A stretch of DNA of 63,314 nucleotides, counting the filler, from Nemertoderma westbladi (lineage: Eukaryota; Animalia; Xenacoelomorpha): assembly GCA_032718475.1 (NCBI GenBank). It is 3 parts of 3 records of this genome, joined end to end, with 100 filler letters (N's around TTAATTAATTAA, not from the genome) between each part and the next. Parts side by side here need not be neighbours in the genome. Positions count along the whole stretch, not along the records: positions 25,955 to 44,661 come from JAUCBJ010000209.1; 2 more parts are not named here. One strand, written 5' to 3'. Both the position numbers and the translations under genes were made by a program. Each line of letters starts with the position of its first letter. Position 1 is the first letter of the stretch. Shown piece by piece: positions 15,360 to 60,969 of this stretch. The notes under the pieces were generated by a model, which was not told where the DNA came from, did no database searches, and saw only the letters and a program-made list of their open reading frames with translations.

Positions 15360-15413
15360 GTAAGTTTTCATATAGTGATATTATAAAACTTTATACAATA
15401 CTTATTTAAACCA

Positions 15414-24125: not shown

Positions 24126-24212
24126 ACGAAAACTGCCCTGGTCCATGTGAGGATTGAACCCACGACCTATTGGAGATGTGAATTCAAAGCAACCACTACA
24201 CCAAGGTGGAAC
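24126..24212 (-). mobile_element. tRNA-like head of SINE family A (fragment)
   Basis: ACGAAAACTGCCCTG...TTGAACCCACGACCT...GAGATGTGAATTCAAAGCAACCACTACACCAAGG aligns with 3967-4049. Confidence 0.7.
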
Positions 24213-24280
24213 AGTAACGTTTGAATTTGTTCGTTAACGTTCGAATTTGTAAGACTCTGATTTAAGACCTGAGGCACTCC

Positions 24281-24913
24281 CCACAGCCACAGCCACAGCC
24301 ACAACCACAGCCACAACCACAGACCACAGCCACAACCACAACCACAGCCACAACCACAGCCACAACCACAGCCACAGCCACAGACCACAGCCACAGCCAC
24401 AACCACAGCCACAGCCACAGCCACAGCCACAGCCACAACCACAGCCACAGCCACAACCACAGCCACAGCCACAACCACAGCCACAGCCACAGCCACAGCC
24501 ACAGCCACAACCACAGCCACAACCACAGCCACAGACCACAGCCACAACCACAGCCACAGCCACAGCCACAACCACAGCCACAGCCACAACCACAGCCACA
24601 ACCACAGCCACAGCCACAACCACAGCCACAGCCACAGCCACAGCCACAGCCACAGCCACAGCCACAACCACAGCCACAGCCACAGCCACAGCCACAGCCA
24701 CAGCCACAGCCACAGCCACAACCACAACCACAGCCACAGCCACAGCCACAGCCACAGCCACAGCCACAACCACAGCCACAACCACAGCCACAGCCACAGC
24801 CACAGCCACAGCCACAGCCACAACCACAGCCACAACCACAGCCACAGCCACAGCCACAACCACAGCCACAGCCACAGCCACAGCCACAGCCACAGCCACA
24901 ACCACAGCCACCA
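24281..24913. repeat. (CCACAG/CCACAA)n hexanucleotide microsatellite
   Basis: About 105 hexamer units read directly. Confidence 0.97.
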
Positions 24914-25233
24914 CTTCTCCCCACAGGAGAATATTTGTTTATCTGTTGTCAAAATGTTTAACTAATTTGATGTTTTGGTTACTCATTCATTATGCATTTA
25001 AAATAGGATCAGACAGGACTGATCATTTATAGTGGTTTATAATATATAATATATATTAGACCATTACACAAATTAAAATTACAAATACAATTACCCACCA
25101 CCACACAAAACGACTCAGAACTCAGGATCAAGTTGACTTTTTTTTTTTAATTAAGCATATTATTATGAAATTACATAATTAATACGACTAAATATAATAA
25201 ATATTTCAAACATATACAATATTTCGGTTATAA

Positions 25234-29550: not shown

Positions 29551-32440
29551 ATATCACGTATAATGAACAATATGCATTCTTTTTCAGTTTCTAGTTGCCA
29601 TGGCAACGAGTAACCTTGACTAAAAACATGCTACATATTAGCGGCAGCGTTTTTAAATCTACCTCTACCCCCACTATATCGAGTATAAAGAAAAATATGC
29701 AATATGTTTTACTTTCTAGATGCCATGGCAACGTGTCAGAATTGTTAATAAAGTGTCTTTAATATCTGTTAGCCGTTTACACTAAGTAAATTAATCACAA
29801 TTATATCATTCAGCGTCAAGCAGTTTCTCTGACAGGCACATGTATTTACTAATGAATCAGGAAATTGGTGAAAGGTATTTATTGGGCAACAACATTCCAT
29901 TTGCACCAGTATTCCAACCAAAATCTAATACACTTAGATTTATCACAGAGTCATTGCATAATGATGCAATCTTATTTATTATGTAGAGACATCGCAAATT
30001 GTGACCATTTATAGATTCTGTTGTTGGAGGGAGATCCTATTACTACTACTAGGATCGGCATGTTGCATTGCAGCTGCATTTTTAAGAATGCTTTCTATGA
30101 ATTCTAGGTCATTGATCAAGAAAACTTGCTACCTCCGTGCAGCATAAAGGAGGTGCCACCTGTGGCTGCATAGACCCTCTTACTAGGGCTAATCTGGTCC
30201 TGTAACTAGGACACCCTTCGTTCTGGGATAAGGACGCCCTTGGTCATGGATTAAGGACCCATATACTTGGCTGCAGGGGTATATTGCCTGGCCAGGCAGA
30301 CCTGCTTCTACCAATGGTACAAATGTGATCTACCAATGGCTGATCAGGAGTAGAGTGTTCTCATGTCCACTCTGAGTGCACTTCACTGCGACCTGCACCT
30401 GGCAGCAGGGGTACAGGGCATGACCCAGCAGATGAGCTGCACAGCCAATGGTGGGTCATGTGCCCCAGAGTAGATATGGGTGATGGGCCTCATATCTGAC
30501 TCCACTGCGATACCCACCCTGTGGAATGGCAAACCAGGGTGTGGTATTTGCCCCGAGAGCTACCTCGGCAACCCCCACTATGGATTACATTGAAGAGTTA
30601 TCAAAAAAGAAAGATAGGCATCTGGCTGTTATCTTTGTTGAATTCTTGAAGGCCTTTGATTCAATCTCACGCTCACGTATGTTCAGCGTACTTTTATTAT
30701 ATGGGATTCCTGATGAAAATATTGCAGCAATCAGATCAGTATTCGATGGGTCGACAACATTTGTGTCTACTGTTGATGGTGACACAGAACCATTTGAAGT
30801 ATTATGGGGAGTCCTCCAAGGAGACGCACTTGCGCCATTCTTGTTCCTAATTGTGGTTGACTATGTTCTAGGCATGTCCTTAGATCATAATAATTATGAT
30901 GGGGTGAATTTAACTCCACCTACTGGCTCCAGAAGTCGAGGAAATCCTGCCAAGTATCTAACTGATCTATACTTTGTTGATGACAGAATAACTAGAGGGA
31001 GCCCAACGGCTCCTCAGCTCATTAGAACAGGCTGCTTCTAATGTTGGTATTTTTATTAACTCCAAAAAGACCAAAATTTTGACAGTTAACTTTGAAAGTC
31101 CTCAACAAGTCTCTGACCGAATGAGCATAAGCTCAAAGGATGGATCCGGAAGTCAGGTGAGAACCTTCGAATACGTAAGAGAAAGACATGGGCAGCCTTG
31201 AATCGGCTTTCCAGGATTTGGAAGTCACAGAGTATTAATCGGAAACTTAAGGTCCGATTATTTAGAGCAGCAGTAGTTCCAGTACTCCACTATGGGAATC
31301 CATGCTGGGCTCTAACTGCGCAGGACACCAAATCTCTGGATGGCACATTCACAAGAATGCTACGCAGGGTTCATTTTGTGAATTACAATGCACACATCTC
31401 CAACCAGACACTATATAACATTGGATATGTCTCATTGGTTCCCCCAAGCTTGAAACTATAACAAAGTCGCCTCCGCTTTGCAGGATATTGCTTTCGCCTT
31501 GATAACCAGCCAGAGGACCATACCTACTCTGGCGCACATGTCCCACCATTGTATTTCCAGCTCATCTGCTGGGCCATGCCCTGTACCCCTGCTGCCAGGT
31601 GCAGGTAGCTGTGAAGTGCACTCAGAGTGGAAATGAGAAGACTCTACACCTGACCAGCCATTGGTAGATCACATTTGTAGCAATGGTAGAGGTAGGTCTG
31701 TCTGGCCAAGCCATATACCCATGCAGCCAAGTATATGGGTCCTTAATCCAGGACCAAGGGCGTCCTTGTCCCAGAACGAAGGGGGTCCTAGTTACAGGAC
31801 CAGATTTGCCCTAGTAAGAGGGTCTATGCAGCCACAGGTGGCACCTCCTTTATGCTGCATGGAGGTTGCAAGTTTTCTTGATCAATGACCTAGAATTCAT
31901 AGACAGCATTCTTAAAAATGCAGCTGCAATGCAGCATGCCAATCCTAGTAGTAGTAATAGGATCTCCCTCCAACAACAGAATACATAAAATGGTCACATT
32001 TTGCGATGTCTCTACATAACAAATAAGATTGCATCATTATGCAATGACTCCTTAATAAATCTAAGTATATTCGATTTTGGTTGGAATACTGGTGCAAATG
32101 GAATGTTGTTGCCCAATAAATACCTTTCACCAATTTCTGATTCATTAGTAAATACATGTGCCTGTCAGAGAAACTGTTTGACGCTGAATGTTATAATTGT
32201 GATTAATTTACATAGTGTAAACGACTAACAGATATTAAAGACACTTTATTAACAATTCTGACGCGTTGCCATGGCACCTAGAAAGTAAAACATATTGCAT
32301 ATTTTTCCAAATACTCGATGTAGTGGGGGTAGAGGTAGATTTAAAAACGCTGCCGCTAATATGGTTTTAGTCAAGGTTACTTAGTTGCCATGGCAACTAT
32401 AAACTGAAAAAGAATGCATATTGTTCCTTATACGTGATAT
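29551..32440. repeat. Long inverted repeat: arms 29551-30479 and 31518-32440 (about 925 bp each) around a ~1.0-kb spacer
   Basis: The arms are reverse complements along their length with scattered substitutions and small indels (outer ends ATATCACGTATAATGAACAA / TTGTTCCTTATACGTGATAT). Confidence 0.9.
30589..31530 (+). mobile_element. RTE LINE RT fragment in the spacer of the inverted repeat
   Basis: IEELSKKKDRHLAVIFVEFLKAFDSI..GVLQGDALAPFLF..YFVDD..KVRLFRAAVVPVLHYG..W.LT. Same family as 16545-18252. Confidence 0.85.
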
Positions 32441-38440: not shown

Positions 38441-38632
38441 CTCCTTTAAAAAAAACTGAAACTTAACTTTATATTGCTCTACGTCTTTGTCAATCCAACA
38501 TCATCAAACAAATCCTTTTGCGAAACACAATAGCAAACGCTACAATCTCTATAACGTGAATGATTTATAATATGGCAGGTACAGTATGATTGTATTGAAC
38601 TACTAAAAATAATAATTTTAATAATAATTTCA

Positions 38633-38900
38633 AGCAGCAGCTTGGTCTAGTGGTGACATTACTGTGCTTCCGATTAGGGAGCCCGGGTTCGATCCCTAGA
38701 TGGGGCAGCACTGTTTGGGCACAGTGCTTTAAATGCTGCAGCCTAGCCCAACCCCGGCTTTCATCCTTCAGTGGTCGATAAATGGGAACCAAGGCAACTT
38801 GGGAAACAGAGTGGAAGGGTTTACTGTGGAAGATCACCCATGGTGGTGAACAGGCATTCCTTGGCTTAACGAGCCTAAAAGATTCTCCCATTCCCATTCA
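38633..38900 (+). mobile_element. Full-length tRNA-derived SINE (family B) with Nin/Deu core
   Basis: A-box TGGTCTAGTGG (38643), B-box GGTTCGATCCC (38686), core CTTTCATCCTTCAGTGGTCGATAAATGGGAACCA, (CCCATT)n tail, and a TSD AATAATAATTT at 38620-38630 and 38902-38912. Confidence 0.8.
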
Positions 38901-39999
38901 AAATAATAATTTTTACTCAATTTTAACTGCAAAATCTGTAAACTATTCAGTTATAGTCTAGTCAGTTATATTAACTGTCATTAAAATATTTTAATTATCA
39001 CTAAAATGAATTACTATAAAATCACTATAAAAATTTAAAATCTAATTTACACTAAATAATAGAAATGAGCAGGTTACAGTGGCAAATTACTCCAACAAAA
39101 ACCATAAACGAAATAAAGAAGTACATTATTAATGAAATTAATATATTTTAGTAATTATAAAATATGAGATATCCACAAAAGCTTTACATTTTTACAGCAT
39201 AAGTTTCCTATGTGGTTATTAATGGCAGAAATCGTTTCTTATTGTTAGAATTTTGGAGGTACTTTACAGCGGCATGATTCTAATCGCTTTATTTTCACTT
39301 ACTTGTGTAACATATGGATACCGAACTGTAAAGAGGTCGTTTATTTATGCACCAAGACTAACTTATTATATAAATGATATATGAATATGAATGAAAAATA
39401 ATGAATATAAAATGATACATAAATGAAAATATTTTTATAACAAAAACAGAAACGCCGTTCTCGTTAATTAGGTTGATAAAATATTCAAACATAGTAAAGC
39501 GATACATTTTGGAAATTTTATTGTTCTATAATATCCTGCGAAATTAATCTTGAATTTGAATAGGAAATTTGGGAAAATATGTATTACATTAGCTTCTCGA
39601 AATGGAAAAAAAAGGAAATTGCGGATGAGATTGAAAAAAAATCGTTATTTCTTAACAGAATGTGCTCAATAATGAAAATTAAGGAGAATTAAATTCAACT
39701 TATAATAAAAAATAAGTATTATTTGGTACCTACAGACAGGTGAATCGACAATGTTACATTGGTACACTAATCACATAGGAAAATGCGAAATGCATAATTT
39801 AATCAAGCAAAAAGCAAATTCAAATAAATATTAACAATGAAATAATAAATATAGCAGTTTTACTAATTCAAAATACGAGCTGAAAAATATACAAGCGCTA
39901 TTACAGTAATTGAATACAATGTCATACCTACACGGCCTGGCCTATCTTCATTTAAAATGCAGTAATATTACCAAAAAACATTAATTGATATATCGTTAA

Positions 40000-42900
40000 C
40001 TAATTGGCATAGTAATTTGCTTTGAGAATTTCAGTGACAATGTAAGATTGTCCAGTTTTCCTTAAACCTTCACAGAATTGGTTAAAGTCAGAAATCGGTC
40101 GTCTTATTATCAGGGCTATAAGCGCATTGTTTTTCTCCAAGTCAGTGGTTATGCTTGCTATCTCCTGAGTCTGGCTGTGAGTGAGCACTCCATTGGCTTC
40201 AAGGTACACCAACAATTCAGAGGGGTCTATACTGTTAACTAAATCCCACCTGGAATAGCTAAGTTGTGCCAGAACAGGGCTCCCTGGGGCTGGGCCGTGA
40301 AACCAATTCTGATAAAATGCAGTTTTAATGGGTCGAGAATAGGGGCAAGGGATAGTTGGAGACAAAAGGCATTCATTGAGATTAATGAAGTGGTAACATG
40401 ATTCTTTATCACAATGGGGGACGTCATGTACTTCACAGTTTACTGTACACGGACAACGCACCATCGTCGTAAACGTTATGTTAACAAATTTTGAAGTAAC
40501 TTTATTGACGCAAATATCAGCTAGTATTTCCTCAATGTTACATTTGATTTCTTTCACAATTGTTGTTTTCGGTGGGTATGACGCTTCGGTTTGACCGCTT
40601 GGGTCTATCGTTTGTTTCCTAAGTATTTGAACTTTTATTCTATTTAAATGTCTTTTCGATTTCGTGAGTATTATGTGGTGGTAAACATCGATAAAAAGTC
40701 TCGTCACATTGTAATATAATTCGGGTTCAACTTTCCTGTCCCCGATTGAGAAAGTCCATTCAATTAGTCGTTTAACCAGAGCGTTATATATACCGTCAAC
40801 CAGGAAACCATTAAATATTAAATAATATTCAACATCAGTTGGTTTAGTTTCGAAATATATTTCATCATTACATGGTTTAAGTCGACACGGTACGTAAAAT
40901 GATAACCGATTAACATCAATAATTGATGCAGTTGATATCTGCGATGCTGTGATGGAATGTTCCAACACATTGCTCTCAACTTGAACTCTTTCGCATAACA
41001 AATCAAAACGAACCAAAATCTTTAGCAAGAAACTCTTTTGATGTAAGTTATCTTTCCACATAATATCTACTAGTTGGTCCCATAATATTCCCTTTTTATA
41101 GAGCTCACCCCACAATATTCCATTGGCCGAAACAACACCATCGTCAACAGATATAACTTTTCGAAACATATCAATAACCCATTGCGGACTCAGAATTACG
41201 GTTTCATCTATATTGTTATCATCAAAATAAACAACTGATCCAATATTATGATAGTATTTCAGCATAGTTATCAATGAGTTTTCACCCATTTGTATACCCT
41301 GCTTCGATAGAATTTCATTCATTTCACTCACCGAACAGTACAAAATATTATTAGAGCAGAGTTCAAAAATAATTTGTTCAAATTTAAAATATTTCAGTGG
41401 TATTTCCTGTCTATAATTCATTGCCAGCTTAACTATTTCATTGCGCAGATTAACCATATCAATATCAACTTCACCAGATTTAAGATTGTTTTCTATTGCA
41501 AAGTAGGATAGCTCCAAATATTGTCGGTATTTTCTGAAACGTACAAACTTATCAATTATCCCAAATTTTTTATTAGCCAGTTGCTTCTGGATGTCAACCT
41601 CCACAGCTAGATCTGCTCGATGAGTTCCAACTATAAATACTCTTCTAATCTCAGAGTCATCTTGCCCATTTGACGTGTAAGAATAAATATTGGATAACCA
41701 TAAATCAATAAATTCTATATTTTTCATATCATTTTGAAAACTTAAATCTGCTTTGCCTTCCAAATCTTTTGTGAGATCAAAAACGACTACATAAACAGCG
41801 TGACTGTTTATAAATATTTGGTGAGTAATGTAGTACAACATTTGCCCTCCGAAATCCCATATATTTAATGACAAATGTTCGTCTTGGTGTGCGTATTTGT
41901 CCATTGCATTTTCATCCTGAGTAACTTTCATCATCATGTCACCTAGAGCAGAGCTGACCCCTAAAGGAATATTAGCTACTTGCTTAGTAATATCGTCAAC
42001 TTGGTGACGTCCGATTTCGTCACATGTTAATCTGTGAAGTGGAACGGCTTTTATATTTTTAACTATATCCACATTAGACTCATCTGTAACATCGTACTCA
42101 GTGTTGATACTGTTAGTCGAAAGGTTGTCACTTCCCTTAACCACAGGATCGCAGATAGTAACAGTAACTCCAATCTTATCTAAAACCTTGCTGAAGATGT
42201 CTAAAGCTATTGTTTTTTCAGCATTTGAAATCATTTCTTGCCGACTAACAAGTTTTGTCCAATTTGTACAGTTGGAGAGATTAATATGACAATAGGTAGT
42301 GGTATCAATACCATGAGTAATACATTCATTGATGTTGAACTTCTGGCCTGTCAAGTTATTCTTTAAGCTGGTTTTACCTGCTAATTCTTGGCCGAGCAAC
42401 ATTAATCTCATTTTAGAACTAATTCGTTTTCCCTCACACAATGATTCGTTGTAAGAAGATATTGCCTCTGGGCCCTGGACAATGATTTCTGAAGGTGTGT
42501 GTTTCTTTATGTAAGTTATCAGATAAGGATGAGGCCTAACCACTATGGTTGGTACTCTTTGAAGACATTTTATATTCCATCTATCCTGCAAACACTTATC
42601 AACAAGTCCTCTTTGGACAAACTCGTTTACAATGTTTTCAGTTGATTCCTCATCTTCTTTCCAAAGAGCACACAGACTGAGAATATCGTATTCACGTTTA
42701 TCGCAAATGGACATTTTGAGGAATTTCATCCGATCTTGAAGCGAAAGGGAATTCAGAGTCCAAACTATTATTTTACCAACAAGCCGTACAGACGTTTGGT
42801 CGGTCATTTCGGATATTTCGTGTATATAGTCTACAATATCTTTCCACTTCTTTGCAATTTCAAGAATGAACTTGTTGGTCCACGATCGCCTCTGACTACC

Positions 42901-43785
42901 TCGTCCTGTCGTGCTAATAATTTGCAGGAATCCATCCCAATAACCGACTACTAAGTGGTTTCCAGCTCCATTAAACTCAAGGCAGGAAATCCTATTTTCT
43001 CTATTATTTAAAACATTAAGGCAGCAACCGTTACTAGCAGACAATATGTATATGACCCTTAAGTCACTCACGGCAACAGTAGTTCCTGTAGGGTGATATG
43101 CAATGCTGTCCGCATATATTTTATCTTCAGCTATCAGACTCCACATTACTTCACCCGTTTCAGCTATCCATGAATGGATCTCTAAACCACCAGCAGAAAC
43201 AATACACCGATAATCTGGAGACCACACAAGTCTAGAGACTTGCCCGGAATGACGGGAAAATTTCGAAATTGGAAGATGCTGACGGTCACATGATAAACCT
43301 CGGATGTCACAAGGCCAAATTTTCACCAGCTTGTCTACAGAACAGCTAGCCAGTTGCAAATTTAATGGTGCAAATGCAAAATCAGTTACCAAACCTTCAT
43401 GTGCCACCCAAGTAACCTTTGAAAAACTGTCGCATCCTAGAGTTATGACAACGAGTTTATTATCAGCACAGACGCCAAAAACATCCGAGTTAAATGAAAA
43501 CGTTACTTTTCTAATACATCTTTTTCTTGTTTCAATTTGATTCGATGGAATATCGAAGAGGATATCGGTGGTTTCGCTGTTCCACACGAGAACCGAACCG
43601 GTATGTGTACCTGCGACTATCGCTCGACCATTAGGAGACAGACAACTGCACGATAGATCCACCCGACTGTTAATAGACCTGATTGGTCTGCGCGTGGAAG
43701 AGTCGGCAATAGAGAGGCTATTCCCGTGGCGGAAGAATATTTGTTTTTCTTCCGGAAGAAACTTGGCATCATATATAGGATTCAT
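40000..43785 (-). CDS. ROCO-family protein: WD40 repeats / Apaf-1-like winged helix / Roc GTPase / COR / C-terminal CARD-like death fold (1261 aa, no introns in the ORF)
   Basis: WD repeats (AHEGLVTDFAF..LASCSVDKLVKIW, RHSGQVSRLVWSPD). Roc motifs GQELAGKTSL, THGID, WDFGGQ, VGTH. COR motifs LKYYHNIGSVVYF and VILSPQW. Terminal DLVNSIDPSELLVYLEANGVLT..FNQFCEGLRKTGQSYI. Confidence 0.9.
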   Translation of the reverse strand: MNPIYDAKFLPEEKQIFFRHGNSLSIADSSTRRPIRSINSRVDLSCSCLSPNGRAIVAGTHTGSVLVWNSETTDILFDIPSNQIETRKRCIRKVTFSFNSDVFGVCADNKLVVITLGCDSFSKVTWVAHEGLVTDFAFAPLNLQLASCSVDKLVKIWPCDIRGLSCDRQHLPISKFSRHSGQVSRLVWSPDYRCIVSAGGLEIHSWIAETGEVMWSLIAEDKIYADSIAYHPTGTTVAVSDLRVIYILSASNGCCLNVLNNRENRISCLEFNGAGNHLVVGYWDGFLQIISTTGRGSQRRSWTNKFILEIAKKWKDIVDYIHEISEMTDQTSVRLVGKIIVWTLNSLSLQDRMKFLKMSICDKREYDILSLCALWKEDEESTENIVNEFVQRGLVDKCLQDRWNIKCLQRVPTIVVRPHPYLITYIKKHTPSEIIVQGPEAISSYNESLCEGKRISSKMRLMLLGQELAGKTSLKNNLTGQKFNINECITHGIDTTTYCHINLSNCTNWTKLVSRQEMISNAEKTIALDIFSKVLDKIGVTVTICDPVVKGSDNLSTNSINTEYDVTDESNVDIVKNIKAVPLHRLTCDEIGRHQVDDITKQVANIPLGVSSALGDMMMKVTQDENAMDKYAHQDEHLSLNIWDFGGQMLYYITHQIFINSHAVYVVVFDLTKDLEGKADLSFQNDMKNIEFIDLWLSNIYSYTSNGQDDSEIRRVFIVGTHRADLAVEVDIQKQLANKKFGIIDKFVRFRKYRQYLELSYFAIENNLKSGEVDIDMVNLRNEIVKLAMNYRQEIPLKYFKFEQIIFELCSNNILYCSVSEMNEILSKQGIQMGENSLITMLKYYHNIGSVVYFDDNNIDETVILSPQWVIDMFRKVISVDDGVVSANGILWGELYKKGILWDQLVDIMWKDNLHQKSFLLKILVRFDLLCERVQVESNVLEHSITASQISTASIIDVNRLSFYVPCRLKPCNDEIYFETKPTDVEYYLIFNGFLVDGIYNALVKRLIEWTFSIGDRKVEPELYYNVTRLFIDVYHHIILTKSKRHLNRIKVQILRKQTIDPSGQTEASYPPKTTIVKEIKCNIEEILADICVNKVTSKFVNITFTTMVRCPCTVNCEVHDVPHCDKESCYHFINLNECLLSPTIPCPYSRPIKTAFYQNWFHGPAPGSPVLAQLSYSRWDLVNSIDPSELLVYLEANGVLTHSQTQEIASITTDLEKNNALIALIIRRPISDFNQFCEGLRKTGQSYIVTEILKANYYAN

Positions 43786-44661
43786 CCTATCATTATTGCT
43801 CCGATTATTTTGTTAAGAATACCAGCAAATCATCAAGCTGTTGAGACGTATAATGGAGTTTTCTTTAACAAACTTTTTGAATCTTAATTCAGGAACAGTT
43901 GATTCAAATTCCTTCAAATAAAATTTACAAATCAGAGATGCAGGTTAACAGGTAACAAATGTGGTGCTCAGTTGCAAAGTAATGAAAAGTTTTACTGTGA
44001 TACGTGCTGGAATAAAAAAACAGGTTTATAGTAAATTTAGAATGCGCTAACTACAGTAGGCATGGGGCATATATATACAATATAGATCAGGTGATCTAAT
44101 TGAATGTACCGCACCGGCAAGCCACAATCATATTCACCCACCCACTCACTCACTACCTATTAATATATCCAATCATACACATCACAAGACCAACGGTAAA
44201 AAGTACCTAAGATGTAATTGTGGATTGACCAACACAATGTTGCATTGTCTAACAATACACTTAAGACTTTGCACCCAAAGTAAATGAACATGTAATTATG
44301 AGATACAGTAGGCTAAAACTATTTCTGGTAAGGTGTTAACTACAATAGGCGCACTATACTATATTAGAAGGATTTTGAGCGTTAAAAACCGATTTATTTA
44401 CAAAACATAGAATAAGAAATTACAAGAGCGTTTTTTATAATATTCAATGAAATGTTCAAAATAGGTATGAAGTTAGTCCAGGATCATACACCCCAAACAT
44501 ACAAAACTAACTGTTTCTAACTAACCGTTTCATCTAATATCTTTAACAACTTGACCTACGGTATTACTTCAGCTATAATAATTTATTAATCAGTTAATAA
44601 TAGACCTTCATAACAAATTAAACGACTATATTGTTACTATAATTATAACCATGTTTCCCCC

Positions 44662-45030: not shown

Positions 45031-45460
45031 CGGGCACTAATGACTCGCAGGCACTAACGTCTCACTTGCAGACAAGGTCCTCGGGCACTAATGACTCGAG
45101 GGCACTAACGTCTCACTTACAGACAAGGTCCTCGGGCACTAATGACTCGAGGGCACTAACGTCTCACTTACAGACATGGTTCCCGGGCACTAATGACTCG
45201 CGGGCACTAAAGTCCTGAGACATTAGTGCCCGCGGGCACTAACGTCTCGCGGGCACTAAAGTCCTGAGACATTAGTGCCCGCGGGCACTAACGTCTCGCG
45301 GGCACTAAAGTCCTGAGACATTAGTGCCCGCGGGCACTAACGTCTCGCGGGCACTAAAGTCCTGAGACATTAGTGCCCGCGGGCACTAACGTCTCGCGGG
45401 CACTAAAGTCCTGAGACATTAGTGCCCGCGGGCACTAACGTCTCGCGGGCACTAATGTCC
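45031..45460. repeat. Composite minisatellite built from a GGGCACTAA monomer: 51-bp units, then 49-bp palindrome-containing units
   Basis: Three 51-bp units from 45031, then about five 49-bp units from 45201 containing the perfect palindrome TTAGTGCCCGCGGGCACTAA. Confidence 0.9.
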
Positions 45461-46002
45461 CCCAATCGTATAAAGTAGGTCATGTATAAACAATCAAACA
45501 TTGTCGCTTAAACCTCATTCCTTGGAGACATTGCTGCTTAGAATTTATTAGAAGACAGTCAGGGCTTATTGCTGTCAAAAAAAACGTCTGTGTGTTTGTC
45601 TGTATGTATGGCTTGGAAGGGTAAGAAGTGCTCTACTTCATGGCCAACTATACAAAGAAATGTATCGATTATTTGGGTTATTAATTATTTAAGCGGGTAA
45701 AATTAAGCTCTTGCTGTATAAAAATAGCACAGGTCGATTCGCCGTGTCCCATTCTCACAAAGTTTATATTATATTCGAGTGTTTAATATAAAGATGTATG
45801 ATTATTTATTGATTGAAAATAAAATAGTGTATAAATATGTAATATTCCCTCACGCAGCCTGAACTTTGCCTATGGTAGCGAATAGGGAAGGATTTTCTCT
45901 GTATCATAGCAACGTTGTACAGTATAATTATTTAACTCTGGCTAGCTGGGAAGACAGGTAGCAAGCCGGTTGGAGTGTTGAGTGTGTCTCAGTAAATCAG
46001 TC

Positions 46003-48148
46003 AGTGTCTGCACCAGTGTCTGCACCACTGTCTGCACCATGTGTCTGCACACTGTCTGCACCAGTGTCTGCACCGGTGTCTGTACCAGTGTCTGCGCCAG
46101 TGTCTGCACCACTGTCTACACCAGTGTCTGCACCACTGTCTGCACCACTGTCTACACCAGTGTCTGCACCAGTGTCTGCACCAGTGTCTGCACCAGTGTC
46201 TGCACCAGTGTCTGCACCACTGTCTACACCAGTGTCTGCACCACTGTCTACACCAGTGTCTGCACCAGTGGCTGCACCAGTGTCTGCACCAGTGTTTGCA
46301 CCACTGTCTGCACCAGGTGTCTGCACCACTGTCTGCACCAGTGTCTGCACCAGTGTCTGCACCAGTGTCTGCACCAGTGTCTGCACCACTGTCTGCACCA
46401 GGTGTCTGCACCAATGTCTGCACCACTGTCTGCACCACTGTCTACACCAGGTGTCTGCACCACTGTCTGCACCAGTGTCTGCACCAGTGTTTGCACTACT
46501 GTCTGCACCAGGTGTCTGCACCACTGTCTGCACCAGTGTCTGCACCAGTGTCTGCACCACTGTCTGCACCAGGTGTCTGCACCACTGTCTGCACCAGTGC
46601 CTGCACCAGTGTCTGCACCAGTGTTTGCACCAGTGTTTGCCCCACTGTCTGCACCAGGTGTCTGCACCACTGTCTGCACCAGTGTGTGCACCACTGTCTG
46701 CACCAGTTTCTGCACCAGTGTCTGCACCAGTGTCTGCACCACTGTCTGCACCAGGTGTCTGCACCAGTGTCTGCACCAGTGTCTGCACCAGTGTCTGCAC
46801 CAGTGTCTGCACCAGTGTCTGCACCACTGTCTGCACCAGGTGTCTGCATCACTGTCTGCACCACTGTCTGCACCAGTGTCTGCACCAGTGTCTGCACCAG
46901 TGTCTGCACCACTGTCTGCACCAGGTGTCTGCACCAATGTCTGCACCACTGTCTGCACCACTGTCTACACCAGGTGTCTGCACCACTGTCTGCACCAGTG
47001 TCTGCACCAGTGTTTGCACTACTGTCTGCACCAGGTGTCTGCACCACTGTCTGCACCAGTGTCTGCACCAGTGTCTGCACCACTGTCTGCACCAGGTGTC
47101 TGCACCACTGTCTGCACCAGTGCCTGCACCAGTGTCTGCACCAGTGTTTGCACCAGTGTTTGCCCCACTGTCTGCACCAGGTGTCTGCACCACTGTCTGC
47201 ACCAGTGTGTGCACCACTGTCTGCACCAGTTTCTGCACCAGTGTCTGCACCAGTGTCTGCACCACTGTCTGCACCAGGTGTCTGCACCAGTGTCTGCAGC
47301 AGTGTCTGCACCAGTGTCTGCACCAGTGTCTGCACCAGTGTCTGCACCACTGTCTGCACCAGGTGTCTGCATCACTGTCTGCACCACTGTCTGCACCACT
47401 GTCTACACCAGTAGTGTCTGCACCACTGTCTGCACCAATGTCTACACCAGTGTCTGCACCACTGTCTGCACCAGTGTCTGCACCAGTGCTTGCACCACTG
47501 TCTGCACCACTGTCTGCACCAGTGTCTGCACCAGTGTCTGCACCAGTGTCTGCACCAGTGTCTGCACCACTGTCTACACCAGTGTCTGCACCACTGTCTG
47601 CACCACTGTCTGCACCAGTGTCTGCACCAGTGTCTGCACCAGTGTCTGCACCAGTGTCTGCACCAGTGCTTGCACCACTGTCTGCACCAGGTGTCTGCAC
47701 CACTGTCTGCACCAGTGTCTGCACCAGTGTCTGCACCAGTGTCTGCACCACTGTCTGCACCAGGTGTCTGCATCACTGTCTGCACCACTGTCTGCACCAC
47801 TGTCTACACCAGTAGTGTCTGCACCACTGTCTGCACCAATGTCTACACCAGTGTCTGCACCACTGTCTGCACCAGTGTCTGCACCAGTGCTTGCACCACT
47901 GTCTGCACCAGGTGTCTGCACCACTGTCTGCACCAGTGCCTGCACCAGTGTTTGCACCACTGTCTGCACCAGGTGTCTGCACCACTGTCTGCACCACTGT
48001 CTGCACCACTGTCTACACCACTGTCTGCACCACTGTCTACACCACTGTCTACACCACTGTCTGCACCAGGTGTCTGCACCACTGTCTGCACCACTGTCTG
48101 CACCACTGTCTGCACCACTGTCTACACCACTGTCTACACCACTGTCTG
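46003..48148. repeat. 12-bp minisatellite (GTCTGCACCAGT / GTCTGCACCACT, with 13-bp variants)
   Basis: Direct reading of the array. All long ORFs here are repeat translations. Confidence 0.97.
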
Positions 48149-48437
48149 CTTAACGTTTACACCCAACGATTACTGTTAGTTATTACTGACTGAAGTTATA
48201 TTTTTATATATTATAAACTATATAATACATTTTGTACCTGGACATAGCCAAAAGTATACTCTTAACAACATATATCCAAGTGTAAATTTCTAAAACATTC
48301 GTCCATTGGAAATTTTTCAATCCAAAATATATTTTTTTTATTTTCTCAATTTACCAAGGTCTATACAATCTTCAAAATTGAGCAAAATTGGGGTAACTTT
48401 TCAAAATTTTCTCGATGACTATAAATTGAATATAATA

Positions 48438-49319
48438 TTAACCTATGATTCCCATGGTAGTGATTTCTTTTTCGTAGGGTTCGGTACACGTTACCAGATC
48501 GACGCCATTGGCTAGCAGTTCAAACTTCCCGCGGTATCCCCCACCCACTGTAAGTATATCCACATCGCTATACATACCCCCATACTCGTAAAGTATCTTA
48601 GCCCTGAAGTAATCCGACTGGTGGTTTAGAGTCAGGTATTCCGTAGCTTTGTGTGCACTCGGGGCGAGTCTCTTGAATAAGCGCAAGTTTATCGGAATTA
48701 CATACAATCCAGGTGATTCTAAACACGTCAATGTTAATTTACAAAGATAAATGAAATCTGGTAATTCGCCTTGCCAGTATATCCAGTGTATTGGTCTTCC
48801 ATTGAGTTGGTAAACTCCGTACTTATCACTGAAAGTTAATAAAGTTTTGGGATTCTTGCCATTTTCTAGTTCGGCAAGAAACTTTTTCACTATTTTTGAA
48901 TCTGTACTGTTTTCGATAACATTTGAAATCTCGGTAGCTAAGTTGGCATACGTTTTGGCATCTGTGAAACCTTTATAAGTATTTTCTGGGAGATTTGTGT
49001 CACAAAATAGAGTTTCAGTTTTATTTCTCGTATTATATAAATCATCTTTCTGTTCTTCTTGTGGTTTGTGGGCATAAAAGGTTACTAGTTCACCTCGAGT
49101 AGCTTCGTTGGATACTGTGCTCGTTGTCTTGGCAACTTTTGAAACAATCGCTGATGTATCCTTGGTTACCATGTAAACGACTCTATCATGTGACTGTTTG
49201 CGTACGGGGTCGATTGTCATGGTTTTATTGCAATAAAAGTTGAATATTCCCGTTAAACCAGCCAGGGATATTATTATAAGGAAATATAGAAGGATAACTT
49301 TTAATATTTGTTTTCGCAT
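48438..49319 (-). CDS. Type II membrane glycosyltransferase, GT32 / DXD (capsule-synthesis-like) family; probably only the first coding exon or truncated
   Basis: N-terminal hydrophobic anchor (ILKVILLYFLIIISLAGLTGIF), a stem region, IHWIYWQG..P, and HQSDYFRAKILYEYGGMYSDVD. The ORF stops about 37 aa after DXD at ATA G/gttaat, a possible donor. Confidence 0.78.
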   Translation of the reverse strand: MRKQILKVILLYFLIIISLAGLTGIFNFYCNKTMTIDPVRKQSHDRVVYMVTKDTSAIVSKVAKTTSTVSNEATRGELVTFYAHKPQEEQKDDLYNTRNKTETLFCDTNLPENTYKGFTDAKTYANLATEISNVIENSTDSKIVKKFLAELENGKNPKTLLTFSDKYGVYQLNGRPIHWIYWQGELPDFIYLCKLTLTCLESPGLYVIPINLRLFKRLAPSAHKATEYLTLNHQSDYFRAKILYEYGGMYSDVDILTVGGGYRGKFELLANGVDLVTCTEPYEKEITTMGIIG

Positions 49320-49439
49320 TCTCTATAAAGGATGTTAACACATAATGGTACATGGTGTAGGCCTATTAAATACATAATAACCCTATGATCAACTAACCCT
49401 AACCAAAAAAAATAAACTGATAAATCCAAGTTAAAGTGC

Positions 49440-54548: not shown

Positions 54549-56798
54549 TTGGGTGGGGTGGGGTGGGTGGTAGCGGTATAGGATACGGTTTGCGGTGGGG
54601 GTGTAAGAGACGGTTTGGGGTGGGGGTGTGGGTGGCGGTATAGGAGACGGTTTGGGGTGGGGGGTAGCCTTATAGGAGACGGTTTGGGGTGGAAGTGTGG
54701 GTGGCGGTATAGGAGACGGTTTGGGGTCGGGGTAGCCTTATAGGAGACGGTTTGGGGTGGGGGTGTGGGAGGCGGTATAGGAGACGGTTTGGGGTCGGGG
54801 TAGCCTTATAGGATACGGTTTAGGGTGTGGGGGTGTAGGAGACGGTTTGGGGTGGGGGGTAGCCTTATAGGAGACGGTTTGGGGTGGGGGGTAGCCTTAT
54901 AGGAGACGTTTTGGGGTGGGGTGTGGGTGGCGGTATAGGAGACGGTTTGGGGTGGGGGTGTGGGTGGCGGTATAGGAGACGGTTTGGGGTGGGGGGTAGC
55001 CTTATAGGATATGGTTTGGGGTGGGGGTGTAGGAGACGGTTTGGGGTGGGGGTGTAGGAGACGGTTTGGGGTGGGGGTGTAGGAGACGGTTTGGGGTGGG
55101 GGTGTAGGAGACGGTTTGGGGTGGGGGTGTAGGAGACGGTTTGGGGTGGCGGTATAGGAGACGGTTTGGGGTGGTGGTGTAGGAGACGGTTTGGGGTGGG
55201 GGTGTAGGAGACGGTTTGGGGTGGGGGTGTGGGAGGCGGTATAGGAGACGGTTTGGGGTGGCGGTATAGGAGACGGTTTGGGGTGGTGGTGTAGGAGACG
55301 GTTTGGGGTGGGGGGAAGCCTTATAGGAGACGGTTTGGGGTGGGGGGTAGCCTTATAGGAGACGTTTTGGGGTGGGGGTGTGGGTGGCGGTATAGGAGAC
55401 GGTTTGGGGTGGGGGGTAGCCTTATAGGAGACGGTTTGGGGTGGGGGTGTGGGTGGCGGTATAGGAGACGGTTTGGGGTGGGGGTAGCCTTATAGGAGAC
55501 GGTTTGGGGTGGGGGTAGCCTTATAGGAGACGGTTTGGGGTGGGGGTAGCCTTATAGGAGACGGTTTGGGGTGGGGGTGTGGGTGGCGGTATAGGAGACG
55601 GTTTGGGGTGGGGGTAGCCTTATAGGAGACGGTTTGGGGTGGGGGTATAGGAGACGGTTTGGGGTGGGGGTGTAGGAGACGGTTTGGGGTGGGGGTGTAG
55701 GAGACGGTTTGGGGTGGGGGTGTAAGAGACGGTTTGGGGTGGGGGTGTGGGTGGCGGTATAGGAGACGATTTGGGGTGGGGCGTAGCCTTATAGGAGACG
55801 TTTTGGGGTGGGGGTAGCCTTATAGGAGACGTTTTGGGGTGTGGGTAGCCTTATAGGAGACGGTTTGTGGTGGGGGTAGCCTTATAGGGGACGGTTTGGG
55901 GTGGAAGGTAGCCTTATAGGAGATGGTTTGGGGTGGCGGTATAGGAGACGGTTTGGGGTGGGGGTATAGGAGACGGTTTGGGGTGGCGGTATAGGAGACG
56001 GTTTGGGGTGGGTGTGTAGGAGACGGTTTGGGGTGGCGGTATAGGAGACGGTTTGGGGTGGGGGTGTAGGAGACGGTTTGGGGTGGGGGGTAGCCTTATA
56101 GGAGACGGTTTGGGGTGGGGATAGCCTTATAGGAGACGGTTTGGGGTGGGGCGTAGCCTTATAGGAGACGTTTTGGGGTGGGGGTGTAGGAGACATTTTG
56201 GGGTGGGGGTGTATGAGACGGTTTGGGGTGGGGGGTAGCCTTATACGAGACGGTTTGGGGTGGGGGTGTAGAATACGGTTTGGGGTGGGGGGTAGCCTTA
56301 TAGGAGACGGTTTGGGGTGGGGGGTAGCCTTATAGGAGACGTTTTGGGGTGGGGTGTGGGTGGCGGTATAGGAGACGTTTTGGGGTGGGGGTGTAGGAGA
56401 CGTTTTGGGGTGGGGGGTAGCCTTATAGGAGACGTTTTGGGGTGGGGGTGTGGGTGGCGGTATAGGATACGGTTTGGGGTGGGGGTGTAGGAGACGTTTT
56501 GGGGTGGGGGGTAGCCTTATAGGAGACGTTTTGGGGTGGGGGTGTGGGTGGCGGTATAGGATACGGTTTGGGGTGGGGGTGTAGGAGACGTTTTGGGGTG
56601 GGGGTGTAGGAGACGGTTTGGGGTGGGGTGGGGGTGTGGGTGGCGGTATAGGACACGGTTTGGGGTGGGGGTGTGGGTGGCGGTATAGGAGACGGTTTGG
56701 GGTGGGTGGTAGCCTTATAGGAGACGGTTTGTGGTGGGGGTGTAGGAGGCGGTTTGGGGTGGGGGTATAGGAGACGGTTTGGGTGGGGGGTATAGCCT
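54549..56798. repeat. G-rich satellite, core 25-bp unit TAGGAGACGGTTTGGGGTGGGGGTG with longer variants (left part)
   Basis: Direct reading. Variants carry AGCCTTA or TGGGTGGCGGTA inserts. Confidence 0.95.
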
Positions 56799-56999
56799 TG
56801 TAGTGACCTAACATCACGAATTAATGGGTCAACATGAGAGCGGGATATTCAAACAGGGATATATAGGACTACTACCTAGGCCTACTGTACTGCTGTACGA
56901 TATACAGCTTACTGCGCTGTCAGATCAATTATCATATCTGCATATGAAATTATATCTGTTATCAATGCTATAACTAATTATTAATGAACGATCATTAAA
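56799..56999 (+). repeat. 5' LTR
   Basis: TGTAGTGACC...ATCATTAAA, identical to 60769-60969. Confidence 0.93.
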
Positions 57000-57014: not shown

Positions 57015-57085
57015 AGGACGCCAGAAACGATAAAAACGTGACTCTGTTGATGCTTTTCTGCTCTTATCGTTTATCATAACAAATA

Positions 57086-57745
57086 ATGACCGAAGCCAAC
57101 GCAGTCGCACTGAAACTTCCTGCCTTCTGGTCCGCCGAACCTGATATTTGGTTCCTGCAAGCGGAATCCCAATTTGCGATTCGGAAAATCATATGTGATG
57201 CAACGAAATATCATTATGTTGTAGCCTCCCTGGACCAAGTTATCGCCTGTCGGGTCCGCGGAATTATCTCCAACCCGCCCGCCGATCAAAAGTATGAAAC
57301 TCTTAAAGCTAAACTCGTTTCCTGTTACAGTTTAACACCCGAACAGAAGGCTTCTCGGCTCGCCAACCTCAGTGGGCTTGGAGATCGTAAACCATCCGAG
57401 CTCCTCGACTATATGTTGTCTCTCAATGATGATAAACCCCCGGATGAGTTTTTCCGCCGACACTTTGTAGAACAACTCCCACAATATGTCCAAGATGCCA
57501 TCATTGCTCTAGATTTTAACGACGTTGTCGATCTTGCTAAGGTTGCTGACAAGGAAATAGAGCGGCGGCGCGATCAACCATCTATCAACGCTGCTGCTGC
57601 AACCCGTCGCCCCCCGCGGCGCGACCATCCATCTACAAATGATGGATCCAAAGAGATTTGCTGGTACCATGCGAAGTTTGGCGACAAGGCGAAGAATTGC
57701 CGTTCCCCATGCATCCATTCGGGAAACTCCTCAACCAGCCACTAG
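57086..57745 (+). CDS. gag: Gag (intact, 219 aa)
   Basis: AVALKLPAFW..W..QAESQF, LGDRKPSELL, CHCC knuckle CWYHAKFGDKAKNCRSPC, and a slippery GGGAAAC at 57721-57727. Confidence 0.9.
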   Translation: MTEANAVALKLPAFWSAEPDIWFLQAESQFAIRKIICDATKYHYVVASLDQVIACRVRGIISNPPADQKYETLKAKLVSCYSLTPEQKASRLANLSGLGDRKPSELLDYMLSLNDDKPPDEFFRRHFVEQLPQYVQDAIIALDFNDVVDLAKVADKEIERRRDQPSINAAAATRRPPRRDHPSTNDGSKEICWYHAKFGDKAKNCRSPCIHSGNSSTSH

Positions 57746-60735
57746 TGGCGGCAAGTGATAGAGAGCCACTCTATCACTCTATCACAGGGTCGAGAGAGCC
57801 GCCTTCTGTACGTCTGGGACCGAAACTCTGGTACGCGCTTCCTCGTTGATTCTGGCGCCGATTTCAGTGTTTATCCTGCTTCCCCTCGTGAAAGGCGCTT
57901 AGGGAGATCCGTCGATTTCTTAAACTCTGACTCTCTCACTGCCGCGAATGGCAGCCCCAATGCGACTTATGGTACTCGTTTAATTCCACTTAATCTCGGA
58001 TCCCGTCGGTTCTCATGGAATTTTGTCCTCGCCAATGTAACGCAACCAATCTTGGGTGCTGATTTCTTCTGTAGTCAAGGAATCCTCATAGACCTCAAGA
58101 ACCAATGTTTAGTCGACGCCGTAACTTACTTGACGATACCGGCACGTCGTACAAACGCGAGCACACCCAAACTCAATGCCATAAGCTCGGAAGACAACGA
58201 TTTTTTTCCCTTTTGGCTGAGTTTCCACAGATAACAACGCCGTTATTCTCCACTACCACGGTACAACACGGAGTTGAACATCATATTCCTACTAAAGGTC
58301 CTCCAACTCATGCTCAGGCTCGCCGTTTAGACCCCACGAAACTGGCTGCTGCTCGCAAAGAGTTTGAAACTTTGGAGAAACTTGGCATCATTCAGCGTTC
58401 CTCCAGCCAAAGGGCTGCGCCTCTTCACATGGTACCAAAACCCGGAGGCGGTTGGCGCCCCCTGTGGTGATTATCGCCAGCTGAATGAGGCTACAACAAT
58501 ACCTGACAGATACCCAGTTCCCCGTCTGCAGGATTTTACCGCACAGTTAGCGGGGAAAACGATATTCTCGAAAGTAGATTTGGTGCGTGGCTATCATCAA
58601 ATCCCAGTGTCTCTGGAAGATATTCCAAAGACGGCCATAATTACGCCATTTGGCTTATTCGAGTTTCGTCGCATGCCTTTCGGCCTACGCAACGCTGCAC
58701 AGGCTTTTCAAAGGCTTATGGACCACGCTTGTCAAGACCTAGATTTTTTATTTATATATCTAGACGATATACTCGTGGCCAACTCTTCCCCAGCCGACCA
58801 TCGGCGACATCTTCGTCTTCTGTTCCAGCGACTCGCCAAATATGGACTCATTATTAATGTTGCCAAATGCGTTTTCGGCGTCGCCGAACTAGACTTCCTC
58901 GGCCATCACATATCGGCTGCCGGGGTGTCACCTCTCGGCGACCACATTGCCGCTATCCAGAACTTTCCTGAACCAACCAACATCAAGGGTTTACAAGAGT
59001 TTTTAGGACTCGTTAACTTTTATCATCGTTTTATTCCACACGCAGCTCAACTCTTGCAGCCCCTTCACTAAGCTACAAAGTCGAGTAAGGATAAAACTAT
59101 CACGTTTACGAGTGACATGAGAACAGCTTTTTCAGCTGCCAAACATGCGCTTTGCAAAGCCACATTACTCTCGCACCCCGTCTCTACCGCTACAACGAGT
59201 TTAACTGTTGATGCATCCGACAAAGCTGTTGGTGGGGCCCTGGAACAATACATTAATGGGGCGTGGCGGCCAATCTCGTTCTTTTCCCGTAAATTACAGC
59301 CGGCTGAAACTCGCTATTCAGCATTTGACCGTGAGTTGTTGGCAATCTACCTTGGTATTCGTCACTTTCGCTACTTTCTGGAGGGCCGGTTGTTCCATAT
59401 CTTCACGGACCACAAACCACTCACGTTCGTTTTCTCCAGTGCTTCTACCAACTGGTCACCTAGGCAACAACGTCACCTATCCTTTATTAGCGAGTTTACT
59501 ACGGATGTGCGTCATATAGAAGGAAACGATAATGTCGTAGCTGATGCATTATCCCGCATCTGCATCGAACCCGATATTCCAATGATCTATGCATCTACAA
59601 CACAGACCCATATTGATTATGGCACCCTCGCACGGGACCAGCAGTCCGACCCGGAGACGCAGTCGTACCGAACTGCAATGACATGTCTCATCATCAGAGA
59701 CGTTCCCCTTACGAATAGTTCAGAATCCATCATGTGTGATATTTCTACTCAACATCCTCGGCCAATTGTTCCTCTCGCATGGCACCGTCGTATATACGAT
59801 AGTGTACACAACCTATCACACCCGCCTCGTTGCAGAACGGTTTGTTTGGCATGGTCTCCATAAGGAAGTTGGAGCATGGGCACGCACCTGTTTATCTTGT
59901 CAACGGGCCAAGATTCATAAACATAATTCTGCACCATTACAATCTTTTAGTGTTCCAGATCGCCGGTTTGCTGTGATCCACGTGGACATTGTCGGACTAC
60001 TTCCGATTTCTCAAGGAAACTCATATATATTCACTATAGTTGATCGATTTACACGCTGGCCCGAAGCTATTCCCATGATGGAAGCTACTGCCTTAGCTTG
60101 CGCGCGAGCCCTTCTCACTCACTGGGTTGCTCGTTATGGCATCCCGAGTGACATTACCTCAGACCGCGGCCGGCAGTTTACATCCAATCTGTGGAGCAAC
60201 CTCAACAAACTTGTTCATCCGCTGAACTGGTCTATGGGACCACCCTCCATCTTCCCGGCCAATTTTTTGAGCCCCCTGACCCCCACTCTTTCAATGACTC
60301 AGACACGGCACCCCTGCTTACTCAACTCCGCGAGTCCATGAAGACACTACTGGCTATCCCGACATCCCATCATGGCGAACGACGAAGCCATGTTTCTAAC
60401 GACACCCGTAATTGCAGCTACGCTTTCGTGCGACATGATGCTCACCGCACACCTCTCCAATGTCCTTACAATGGACCCTTCAAGGTTCTTGAGCGCAACA
60501 CTAAATACATGACTCTCGAATTCAATGGCCGCAAAGACACTGTCTCAATTGACCGGCTTAAACCAGCCTACGTTGACTCTGATTTCGGTATTCCGTCGCC
60601 TTCAAACGTACGCCCCCTAGCGGCCCCAAGACGACACGCCCTCGGGAGGTTTCGATACTTTCCCCTCAGCCCGCACCAAAAGTTGAGGTTACAACTCGGT
60701 CGGGTCGGATAGTTAGACCACCTGAACGCTTATGA
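57721..60735 (+). pseudogene. pol: Disrupted pol (protease, RT, RNase H, integrase)
   Basis: FLVDSGA, YLDD, DAS..YSAFDRELLA, TSDRGRQF, GPF. Frameshifts at about 57770, 58205, 58460, 59825 and 60215, an in-frame TAA at 59069, and a deletion in the integrase core. Confidence 0.92.
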
Positions 60736-60768: not shown

Positions 60769-60969
60769 TGTAGTGACCTAACATCACGAATTAATGGGTC
60801 AACATGAGAGCGGGATATTCAAACAGGGATATATAGGACTACTACCTAGGCCTACTGTACTGCTGTACGATATACAGCTTACTGCGCTGTCAGATCAATT
60901 ATCATATCTGCATATGAAATTATATCTGTTATCAATGCTATAACTAATTATTAATGAACGATCATTAAA
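60769..60969 (+). repeat. 3' LTR
   Basis: Follows the PPT TTGGGGGAGTAC and is identical to the 5' LTR. Confidence 0.93.

What the first reader, a model, noticed from the sequence alone, without database searches (positions are those of the whole stretch)
40000..43785. Rearranged apoptosome-like protein: WD40 / Apaf-1 winged helix / Roc-COR GTPase / CARD
Seen: one uninterrupted ORF with about 7 WD40 repeats (about 43785-42900), a segment LCALWKEDEESTENIVNEFVQRGLV..HPYLITYI (about 42760-42500), a full Roc G-domain, COR with a Cys/His-rich end, and a terminal CARD-like fold (about 40270-40003). Established: Apaf-1 is CARD / NB-ARC (with winged helix) / HD2 / WD40, and its winged helix reads, from memory, LCILWDMETEEVEDILQEFVNKSLL..HDL. 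ROCO proteins dimerise through Roc-COR. Inference: Apaf-1 parts (sensor propeller, winged helix, a CARD effector) are reassembled in reverse order around a GTPase switch instead of an ATPase. This could be a GTP-driven caspase-recruiting or innate-immune sensor. Invertebrate ROCOs with death folds are known, but I do not recall this exact architecture.
Basis: partly seen in the sequence, partly recalled or inferred. Interest (0 to 1): 0.85.

Follow-up and report, generated by a model that had tools for sequence, protein, structure and literature searches.

The report
ROCO GTPase with stray Apaf-1 domain
An intact animal gene joins a WD40 propeller, a lone winged-helix domain of the kind found in the cell-death protein Apaf-1, an LRRK2-type GTPase module and a caspase-recruitment domain; it likely works as an immune or cell-death sensor within a known mix-and-match invertebrate family, and it lacks the ATPase that builds an apoptosome ring.

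Summary
One 1261-codon ORF (43785-40000, minus strand) encodes seven WD40 repeats, an NB-ARC/Apaf-1-type winged helix (WHD), Roc, COR and a C-terminal CARD. The WHD is supported by two tests: Pfam APAF-1-like_WHD (E 3.5e-4, below cut-off) and a profile of 33 bacterial NB-ARC segments built without the query (E 1.6e-7; 0 of 2000 shuffles reach it). In other runs the ORF is open and under purifying selection (20 synonymous, 13 replacement changes). One contig carries a cDNA adapter on the sense strand, so the 3' half is likely transcribed. The Roc-COR core belongs to a known invertebrate ROCO clade that swaps end domains and often ends in a death fold, and ROCOs with CARD are published. The ATPase domain, the GxP motif and HD2 of Apaf-1 are missing, so no apoptosome ring is expected. 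The propeller is not shown to come from Apaf-1, and in the best-studied bacterial ROCO GTP binding breaks the dimer. What looks new is the orphan WHD between propeller and Roc. Verdict: new variant of a known kind.

The parts
40000..43785 (-). Single uninterrupted ORF, 1261 aa, WD40-WHD-Roc-COR-CARD
   Evidence: spanned in one contig without indels in runs X2 and X3
42877..43785 (-). Seven-repeat WD40 propeller, aa 1 to about 303; presumed sensor
   Evidence: Pfam WD40 72.8 bits; repeat layout; origin not resolved
42502..42876 (-). Helical linker plus NB-ARC/Apaf-1-type winged helix, aa 304-428; matched core aa 334-405; His419 is a candidate equivalent of Apaf-1 His438 after a 9-residue insertion in the wing
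41416..42498 (-). Roc GTPase domain, aa 430 to about 790: G1 aa 465-472, G2 Thr490, G3 aa 643-647, variant G4 aa 720-725, G5 aa 763-766; long variable insert between G2 and G3
40990..41400 (-). COR-A, aa 796-932
   Evidence: Pfam 52.1 bits, cut-off 35.3
40471..40893 (-). COR-B-equivalent region, about aa 965-1105
   Evidence: no Pfam hit in the query; aligns with relatives whose COR-B is weakly detected
40300..40458 (-). Cys/His-rich tail, aa 1110-1162, likely a zinc-binding module shared by the invertebrate ROCO clade
   Evidence: C1111 and C1147 in 39 of 40 rows, H1132 in 35, C1130 in 31, C1117/H1120/C1125 in 29
40027..40251 (-). CARD, aa 1179-1253; presumed effector
   Evidence: 4 synonymous and 0 replacement allelic changes
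39260..39999 (-). Likely 3' UTR; AATAAA at 39293-39288; the cDNA-like contig of run X4 is inferred to end at about 39260
44007..44020 (-). Possible splice acceptor for a 5' UTR exon (pyrimidine tract plus CAG); untested

Best explanation
This gene encodes a ROCO GTPase with a WD40 propeller and an Apaf-1-type winged helix in front and a CARD behind, and it likely acts as an intracellular sensor whose predicted GTP/GDP switch controls how its CARD recruits a CARD-bearing caspase or adaptor. Shown: the domain order, the open frame, purifying selection, and placement of Roc-COR in the invertebrate clade that swaps end domains. Inferred: (1) the propeller fills the N-terminal input slot that LRR, Neuralized, Macro, TAZ or DED domains fill in relatives; (2) Roc-COR cycles between dimer and monomer with nucleotide, as in C. 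tepidum Roco, direction unknown here; (3) the CARD fills the output slot that Death or Death-TIR fills in relatives; (4) the winged helix was carried in from an NB-ARC (probably Apaf-1-like) gene and now serves mainly as a folded spacer that sets the propeller against Roc, since the ATPase it latches in Apaf-1 is gone.
For: Domain hits. Best Roc-COR relatives are echinoderm and mollusc proteins at 26-30% identity, with Neuralized/Death/TIR or kinase ends. Quick tree of 44 rows: the query falls in a 20-row set with SH-aLRT 97, apart from the bacterial-type rows. 13 of 38 scanned relatives list a Death domain among their best five families, and P0198 is CARD-FN3-Roc. G1, G2, G3 and G5 match the family. 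33 allelic differences in the ORF: 20 synonymous, 13 replacement, no stop or indel; pN/pS 0.19, p 2e-6. The X4 contig ends in the Smart-seq template-switch oligo on the sense strand, and its other end lies about 28 nt after an AATAAA. Published parallels: Trichoplax ROCOs with CARD and death domains, Aplysia ROCO-TIR-Death proteins, prokaryotic AP-GTPase conflict systems with variable effectors.
Against: No function, ligand or partner was tested. The query is a long branch (1.74) of unusual composition, and only the quick tree finished. G4 reads THRAD, with the Asp one place later than in the THxD form of many relatives, so guanine specificity is assumed. COR-B, the dimerising half, is not detected by Pfam in the query. 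The cDNA-like evidence is one contig from a run whose kind is only guessed, and it covers aa 646 onward, not the WD40/WHD half. With GTP favouring monomers in C. tepidum Roco, how two CARDs would be brought together is open.
Confidence: 0.55

Rival explanations
1. The winged helix is a working latch moved from an ATPase to a GTPase. It would pack on Roc, hold GDP through His419 as Apaf-1 His438 holds ADP, and swing away when the propeller binds ligand. Or it would dock on HD1 of the organism's own Apaf-1 and so tune the apoptosome.
For: The whole WHD appears kept, with a His before the last helix and 4 synonymous to 1 replacement change in aa 296-428. In Apaf-1 the WHD blocks the nucleotide pocket and also contacts the neighbour's HD1 (PMC4691890, passages). 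P0023, a metagenome protein of bacterial type, has NB-ARC-WHD joined directly to Roc-COR, so this junction appears to have arisen twice.
Against: In P0023 the WHD keeps its own ATPase, so it needs no role on Roc. The alignment puts the His equivalent either at Lys406 (His lost) or at His419 after a 9-residue insertion, so the key residue is ambiguous. The WHD-HD1 contact is minor in Apaf-1 (about 763 of 2805 square angstroms). Five allelic changes are too few to show special constraint.
Confidence: 0.13
2. The protein is a non-immune or inhibitory scaffold: a CARD decoy or a trafficking/developmental ROCO whose GTPase cycle is slow or altered and which does not activate a caspase.
For: Variant G4. 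No close paralogue: other contigs in the runs match only 21-45-base stretches of Roc-COR at 80% or more, and none match the WD40/WHD part. No sign of rapid diversification in the propeller (5 synonymous, 5 replacement changes). ROCOs have varied cellular roles (PMC6337361, passages).
Against: A CARD output and an Apaf-1-type part both point to death or immune signalling, and Death, DED, TIR, HEPN and caspase ends dominate among relatives.
Confidence: 0.2
3. One reading: a GTP-driven apoptosome, a ring or large platform built from reordered Apaf-1 parts.
For: WD40, WHD and CARD are all present; mouse Apaf-1 is among the WD40 hits, E 5e-10.
Against: No NBD, GxP motif or HD2. The ring interface is mainly NBD-NBD. 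Roc-COR proteins are described as dimers or monomers. The propeller is not closer to Apaf-1 than to WDR5.
Confidence: 0.05
4. A recent chimeric retrocopy or assembly artefact with no function.
For: The ORF has no intron; retroelement remnants lie elsewhere in the window; no protein with the same layout was found.
Against: One contig spans the whole ORF in X1, X2 and X3; pN/pS 0.19 with no stop in 33 differences; indels occur only upstream of the ATG; every domain is far diverged from any found donor; Roc-COR is one long open frame (about 760-830 codons in many loci) among the relatives too.
Confidence: 0.04

Closest known systems
Invertebrate modular ROCOs, e.g. Neuralized-Roc-COR-Death-TIR (Lytechinus LOC129271251, Mactra; Aplysia ROCO-TIR/Death proteins in PMC9334734)
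   Same: Same Roc-COR subtype (28-30% identity), same insert between G2 and G3, same Cys/His tail, death fold right after it.
   Different: WD40 plus WHD in place of Neuralized; CARD in place of Death-TIR.
Trichoplax adhaerens ROCO repertoire (Civiero et al. 2014, PMC4104024)
   Same: Kinase-less Roc-COR surrounded by CARD, death and repeat domains, some with AAA ATPase domains (passages and figure legend).
   Different: The text and legend list TPR, LRR, MBT, SH3, TIR, AAA and CARD, not WD40 or an isolated winged helix; the figure itself could not be seen.
Apaf-1 / CED-4 / Dark (AP-ATPase STAND proteins)
   Same: Homologous winged helix; also has a CARD and WD40 repeats.
   Different: No NBD, GxP motif or HD2; order reversed; one propeller, not two; GTPase instead of ATPase; no basis for a ring.
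P0023, metagenome NB-ARC-WHD-Roc-COR protein of bacterial type
   Same: Winged helix followed directly by Roc-COR.
   Different: Keeps the full NB-ARC ATPase, has no WD40 or CARD, and its Roc-COR groups with bacterial-type rows.
Bacterial WD40-Roc(-TIR) proteins
   Same: WD40 with Roc; top ESM Atlas clusters for the whole protein, score 0.75-0.84, leads only.
   Different: Bacterial; no CARD or WHD among the listed families.
DAPK1, LRRK2, C. tepidum Roco
   Same: Roc-COR tandem; DAPK1 ends in a death domain.
   Different: No kinase, LRR or ankyrin here; LRRK2's WD40 is C-terminal.

Membership tests
ROCO (AP-GTPase) | Roc G-domain with G1-G5 motifs | tested here: met
   Pfam Roc 52.6 bits, cut-off 27; G1, G2, G3, G5 as in relatives, G4 variant; G4/G5 variation is usual in Roc (PMC6337361)
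ROCO (AP-GTPase) | COR directly after Roc | tested here: met
   COR-A 52.1 bits, cut-off 35.3, aa 796-932
ROCO (AP-GTPase) | COR-B dimerisation subdomain | tested here: inconclusive
   No Pfam COR-B hit in the query; region aligns with relatives that have weak COR-B hits
ROCO (AP-GTPase) | GTP binding, hydrolysis and nucleotide-dependent dimer cycle | not testable with these tools
   needs biochemistry
Invertebrate modular ROCO clade | Roc-COR groups with Neuralized/Death/TIR-type invertebrate ROCOs; Cys/His tail | tested here: met
   SH-aLRT 97 set of 20 rows in a quick tree, long branch; tail residues conserved
Apaf-1/CED-4 family | NB-ARC nucleotide-binding domain with Walker A/B | tested here: not met
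   No NB-ARC Pfam hit; only P-loop is Roc G1
Apaf-1/CED-4 family | HD1 with GxP motif | tested here: not met
   No GxP[LI] in aa 290-430; alignment
Apaf-1/CED-4 family | Winged-helix domain | tested here: met
   Sequence homology; under the Pfam cut-off; fold not confirmed by structure prediction
Apaf-1/CED-4 family | HD2 then C-terminal WD40, with N-terminal CARD | tested here: not met
   Roc starts at aa 430, right after the WHD; WD40 is N-terminal and CARD C-terminal
Apaf-1/CED-4 family | WD40 repeats descended from Apaf-1 propellers | tested here: inconclusive
   Apaf-1 about 55th of 248 PDB hits; 31 database hits were generic WD40 proteins, fungal or bacterial where named
CARD (death-fold) | CARD profile match | tested here: met
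   27.9 bits, cut-off 23.9, isolated; 22.9 in the whole protein; CED-4 and RAIDD hits

The most novel reading that the evidence does not exclude
The Apaf-1-type winged helix has been transplanted from its ATPase onto a Roc GTPase and still works as the nucleotide latch, coupling ligand binding by the propeller to GDP release and CARD exposure. That would be a STAND-style autoinhibition module running on a GTPase, with a parallel winged-helix/Roc junction in bacteria.
Probability: 0.13. Interest if true: 0.8.

Novelty: new variant of a known kind. Interest (0 to 1): 0.45.

Why it matters
Invertebrate ROCOs with death folds are a large, almost untested group of candidate immune sensors. This one shows that parts of the apoptosome (AP-ATPase) system and the ROCO (AP-GTPase) system can be joined in one animal protein that selection keeps intact. 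It offers a clean test of whether the winged helix of Apaf-1/NLR proteins can work without its ATPase, and of how a Roc-COR cycle controls a CARD. If the winged helix is only a spacer, the gene is one more shuffle in a family already known for shuffling.

Full report
Observation. The minus strand holds one open frame, 40000-43812 stop to stop, with its first ATG at 43785 and 1261 codons. Pfam finds WD40 repeats over aa 15-293, APAF-1-like_WHD at aa 371-402 (E 0.004), Roc, COR-A at aa 796-932 and CARD at aa 1179-1253. Cut out, the CARD passes its cut-off (27.9 against 23.9 bits) and the WHD improves to E 3.5e-4 but stays under its cut-off. Seven repeats of about 42 residues can be laid out by eye. 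The CARD's best solved relatives are the CED-4 and RAIDD CARDs.

Is the winged helix real? Direct searches failed and the structure models were too poor to use. A lead came from a local search of the 236 other fetched proteins, where the best match to the segment was the winged helix of P0023, an NB-ARC-Roc-COR protein (E 0.079 in that set; pairwise E 8e-4). I used the NB-ARC part of P0023 to collect bacterial relatives from 301 genomes. A profile of 33 HD1/WHD segments, without the query, matches aa 334-405 at 17.5 bits (E 1.6e-7 for one comparison). 0 of 2000 shuffles reach that score (best 4.3), and of 235 other proteins only P0224, which has its own NB-ARC, scores higher. A 17-row subset finds human Apaf-1 315-447 first among PDB chains (E 3.9e-16), then AfsR, plant NLRs and Dark, and aligns to the query by hhalign at 72% probability. 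Against the Apaf-1 residues printed, aa 371-395 has 11 of 25 ungapped identities (counted by eye); the best of 34 bacterial segments has 9. So it is an AP-ATPase-type winged helix, closest to the Apaf-1 kind, though the donor gene is not identified. The GxP motif, the nucleotide-binding domain and HD2 are absent: Roc begins at aa 430 and the only P-loop is Roc's. The His of the MHD/LHD motif aligns either to Lys406 or, after a 9-residue insertion, to His419.

Is the gene real and used? Four runs hold the DNA, from three studies; X1 may be the window's own source. X2 and X3 (one sample) span the whole ORF in one contig, with no indel; X4 covers its 3' half. All 33 differences in the ORF are listed: 20 synonymous, 13 replacement, none a stop; pN/pS is 0.19 (binomial p 2e-6). 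Six indels lie upstream of the ATG. The X4 contig stops at 41850 in a 20-letter loose end that is the reverse complement of the 3' part of the Smart-seq template-switch oligo (PMC13234734, passages; 42 papers hold the string with 'template switch'). The oligo is oriented as the 5' end of a minus-strand cDNA. From record length and offsets, the other end falls at about 39260, 28 bases after an AATAAA; that last stretch lay outside what was laid, so the position is inferred. This is one contig in a run whose kind the tool only guessed as DNA, and it covers aa 646 onward. I read it as likely transcription of the 3' half. The contigs of X1-X3 all stop at 38871, at the edge of what looks like a tRNA-type short repeat (my reading), as DNA assemblies would.

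What family? The Roc-COR search returned 56 proteins, led by echinoderm and mollusc proteins at 26-30% identity. The alignment is continuous from aa 430 to the death fold, including the long G2-G3 insert and the Cys/His tail. In a 41-row alignment G1, G2, G3 and G5 are family-typical, G4 reads THRAD, and the tail cysteines and histidines are kept in 29-39 of 40 rows, so the Cys/His end is a family trait. A quick IQ-TREE run on 44 rows (chosen by coverage from the fetched proteins, plus bacterial-type rows) puts the query, on a long branch, in a 20-row set with SH-aLRT 97 whose members end in Neuralized, Death, TIR, DED, Macro, TAZ or kinase domains; P0023 groups with the bacterial-type rows. 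Of 38 longer relatives scanned (of 205 Roc-related proteins held; best five families shown), 13 list a Death domain, and P0198 is CARD-FN3-Roc. None of the 205 proteins matched the query's WD40, and none of the 80 ROCO loci matched its WD40, CARD or WHD; among those proteins a WHD was seen only in P0023.

How it likely works. By position, the propeller is the input, Roc-COR the switch and the CARD the output, the same three-part plan described for prokaryotic AP-GTPase conflict systems (PMC8195603, passages) and seen in Aplysia and Trichoplax ROCOs (PMC9334734 and PMC4104024, passages). An apoptosome ring is not expected: three quarters of the Apaf-1 protomer interface is NBD-NBD, and the WHD plays a supporting part there and latches ADP through His438 (PMC4691890, passages). 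The direction of the switch is open: older work has the GTP dimer as the active form, whereas C. tepidum Roco is dimeric when empty or GDP-bound and monomeric with GTP (PMC5714945, abstract). With its ATPase gone, the simplest role for the WHD is a folded spacer inherited from an NB-ARC donor. The bolder reading, a latch on the GTPase, is not excluded and gains a little from the parallel junction in P0023. All of these functional steps are inference.

Novelty. ROCOs with CARD are published, N-terminal WD40 repeats on ROCOs are mentioned in review text (PMC11378527, passages and section 10), a ROC-caspase fusion is reported in Owenia (PMC11463336, passages), and invertebrate Apaf-1 homologues are known to shuffle their ends (PMC2246300 and PMC6321704, passages). 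Seven literature searches listed no paper describing a WD40-WHD-Roc-COR-CARD protein or an isolated Apaf-1 winged helix on a ROCO. The library is partial, and I could not see the figures, nor did I open the supplements, that list about forty animal ROCO layouts. Earlier unchecked notes of this scan report several other Roc-COR-CARD genes in other animals and a caspase-Apaf-1 fusion in this same genome; these are leads only, but they fit a lineage that reshuffles Apaf-1 parts. Verdict: a real, selected gene and a new variant of the invertebrate modular ROCOs; the orphan winged helix is the unusual part. Interest 0.45.

Noticed in passing
window 5469-15386 (+), with a further Ig exon at 4295-4765: 3305-codon open frame with 13 I-set Ig domains followed by a long A-rich low-complexity region; titin-like giant exon.
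   Followed up: partly
window 57080-60340 (+): Ty3/gypsy-type LTR retrotransposon remnant (DUF7041, protease, RT, RNase H, integrase) broken into several frames.
   Followed up: partly
window 16913-17365 (+) and 30484-31041 (+): Short reverse-transcriptase fragments.
   Followed up: no
window 48438-49322 (-): 294-codon frame with a DXD-type glycosyltransferase domain (Gly_transf_sug E 6e-8; weak TcdA_TcdB row E 0.001), probably an ordinary eukaryotic glycosyltransferase exon.
   Followed up: no
window 40300-40458 (-) and alignment A4: Cys/His cluster after COR conserved across invertebrate ROCOs, with no Pfam match; likely an unannotated zinc-binding module.
   Followed up: partly
protein P0023: Metagenome protein with a full NB-ARC ATPase and winged helix fused directly to Roc-COR: two NTPase switches in one chain. 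None of 34 related NB-ARC loci showed a Roc within their short flanks.
   Followed up: partly
runs X1-X4, window 40620-41731: Several other contigs match short Roc-COR stretches at 80-90%, implying further ROCO genes in this organism.
   Followed up: no
window 45040-45460, 45960-48190, 24170-25030, 54800-56800, 60950-63314: Tandem repeat arrays that produce long spurious open frames.
   Followed up: no
window 38565-38897 (-): Short repeat with a tRNA B-box-like motif (SINE-like, my reading) at which three runs' contigs break.
   Followed up: partly
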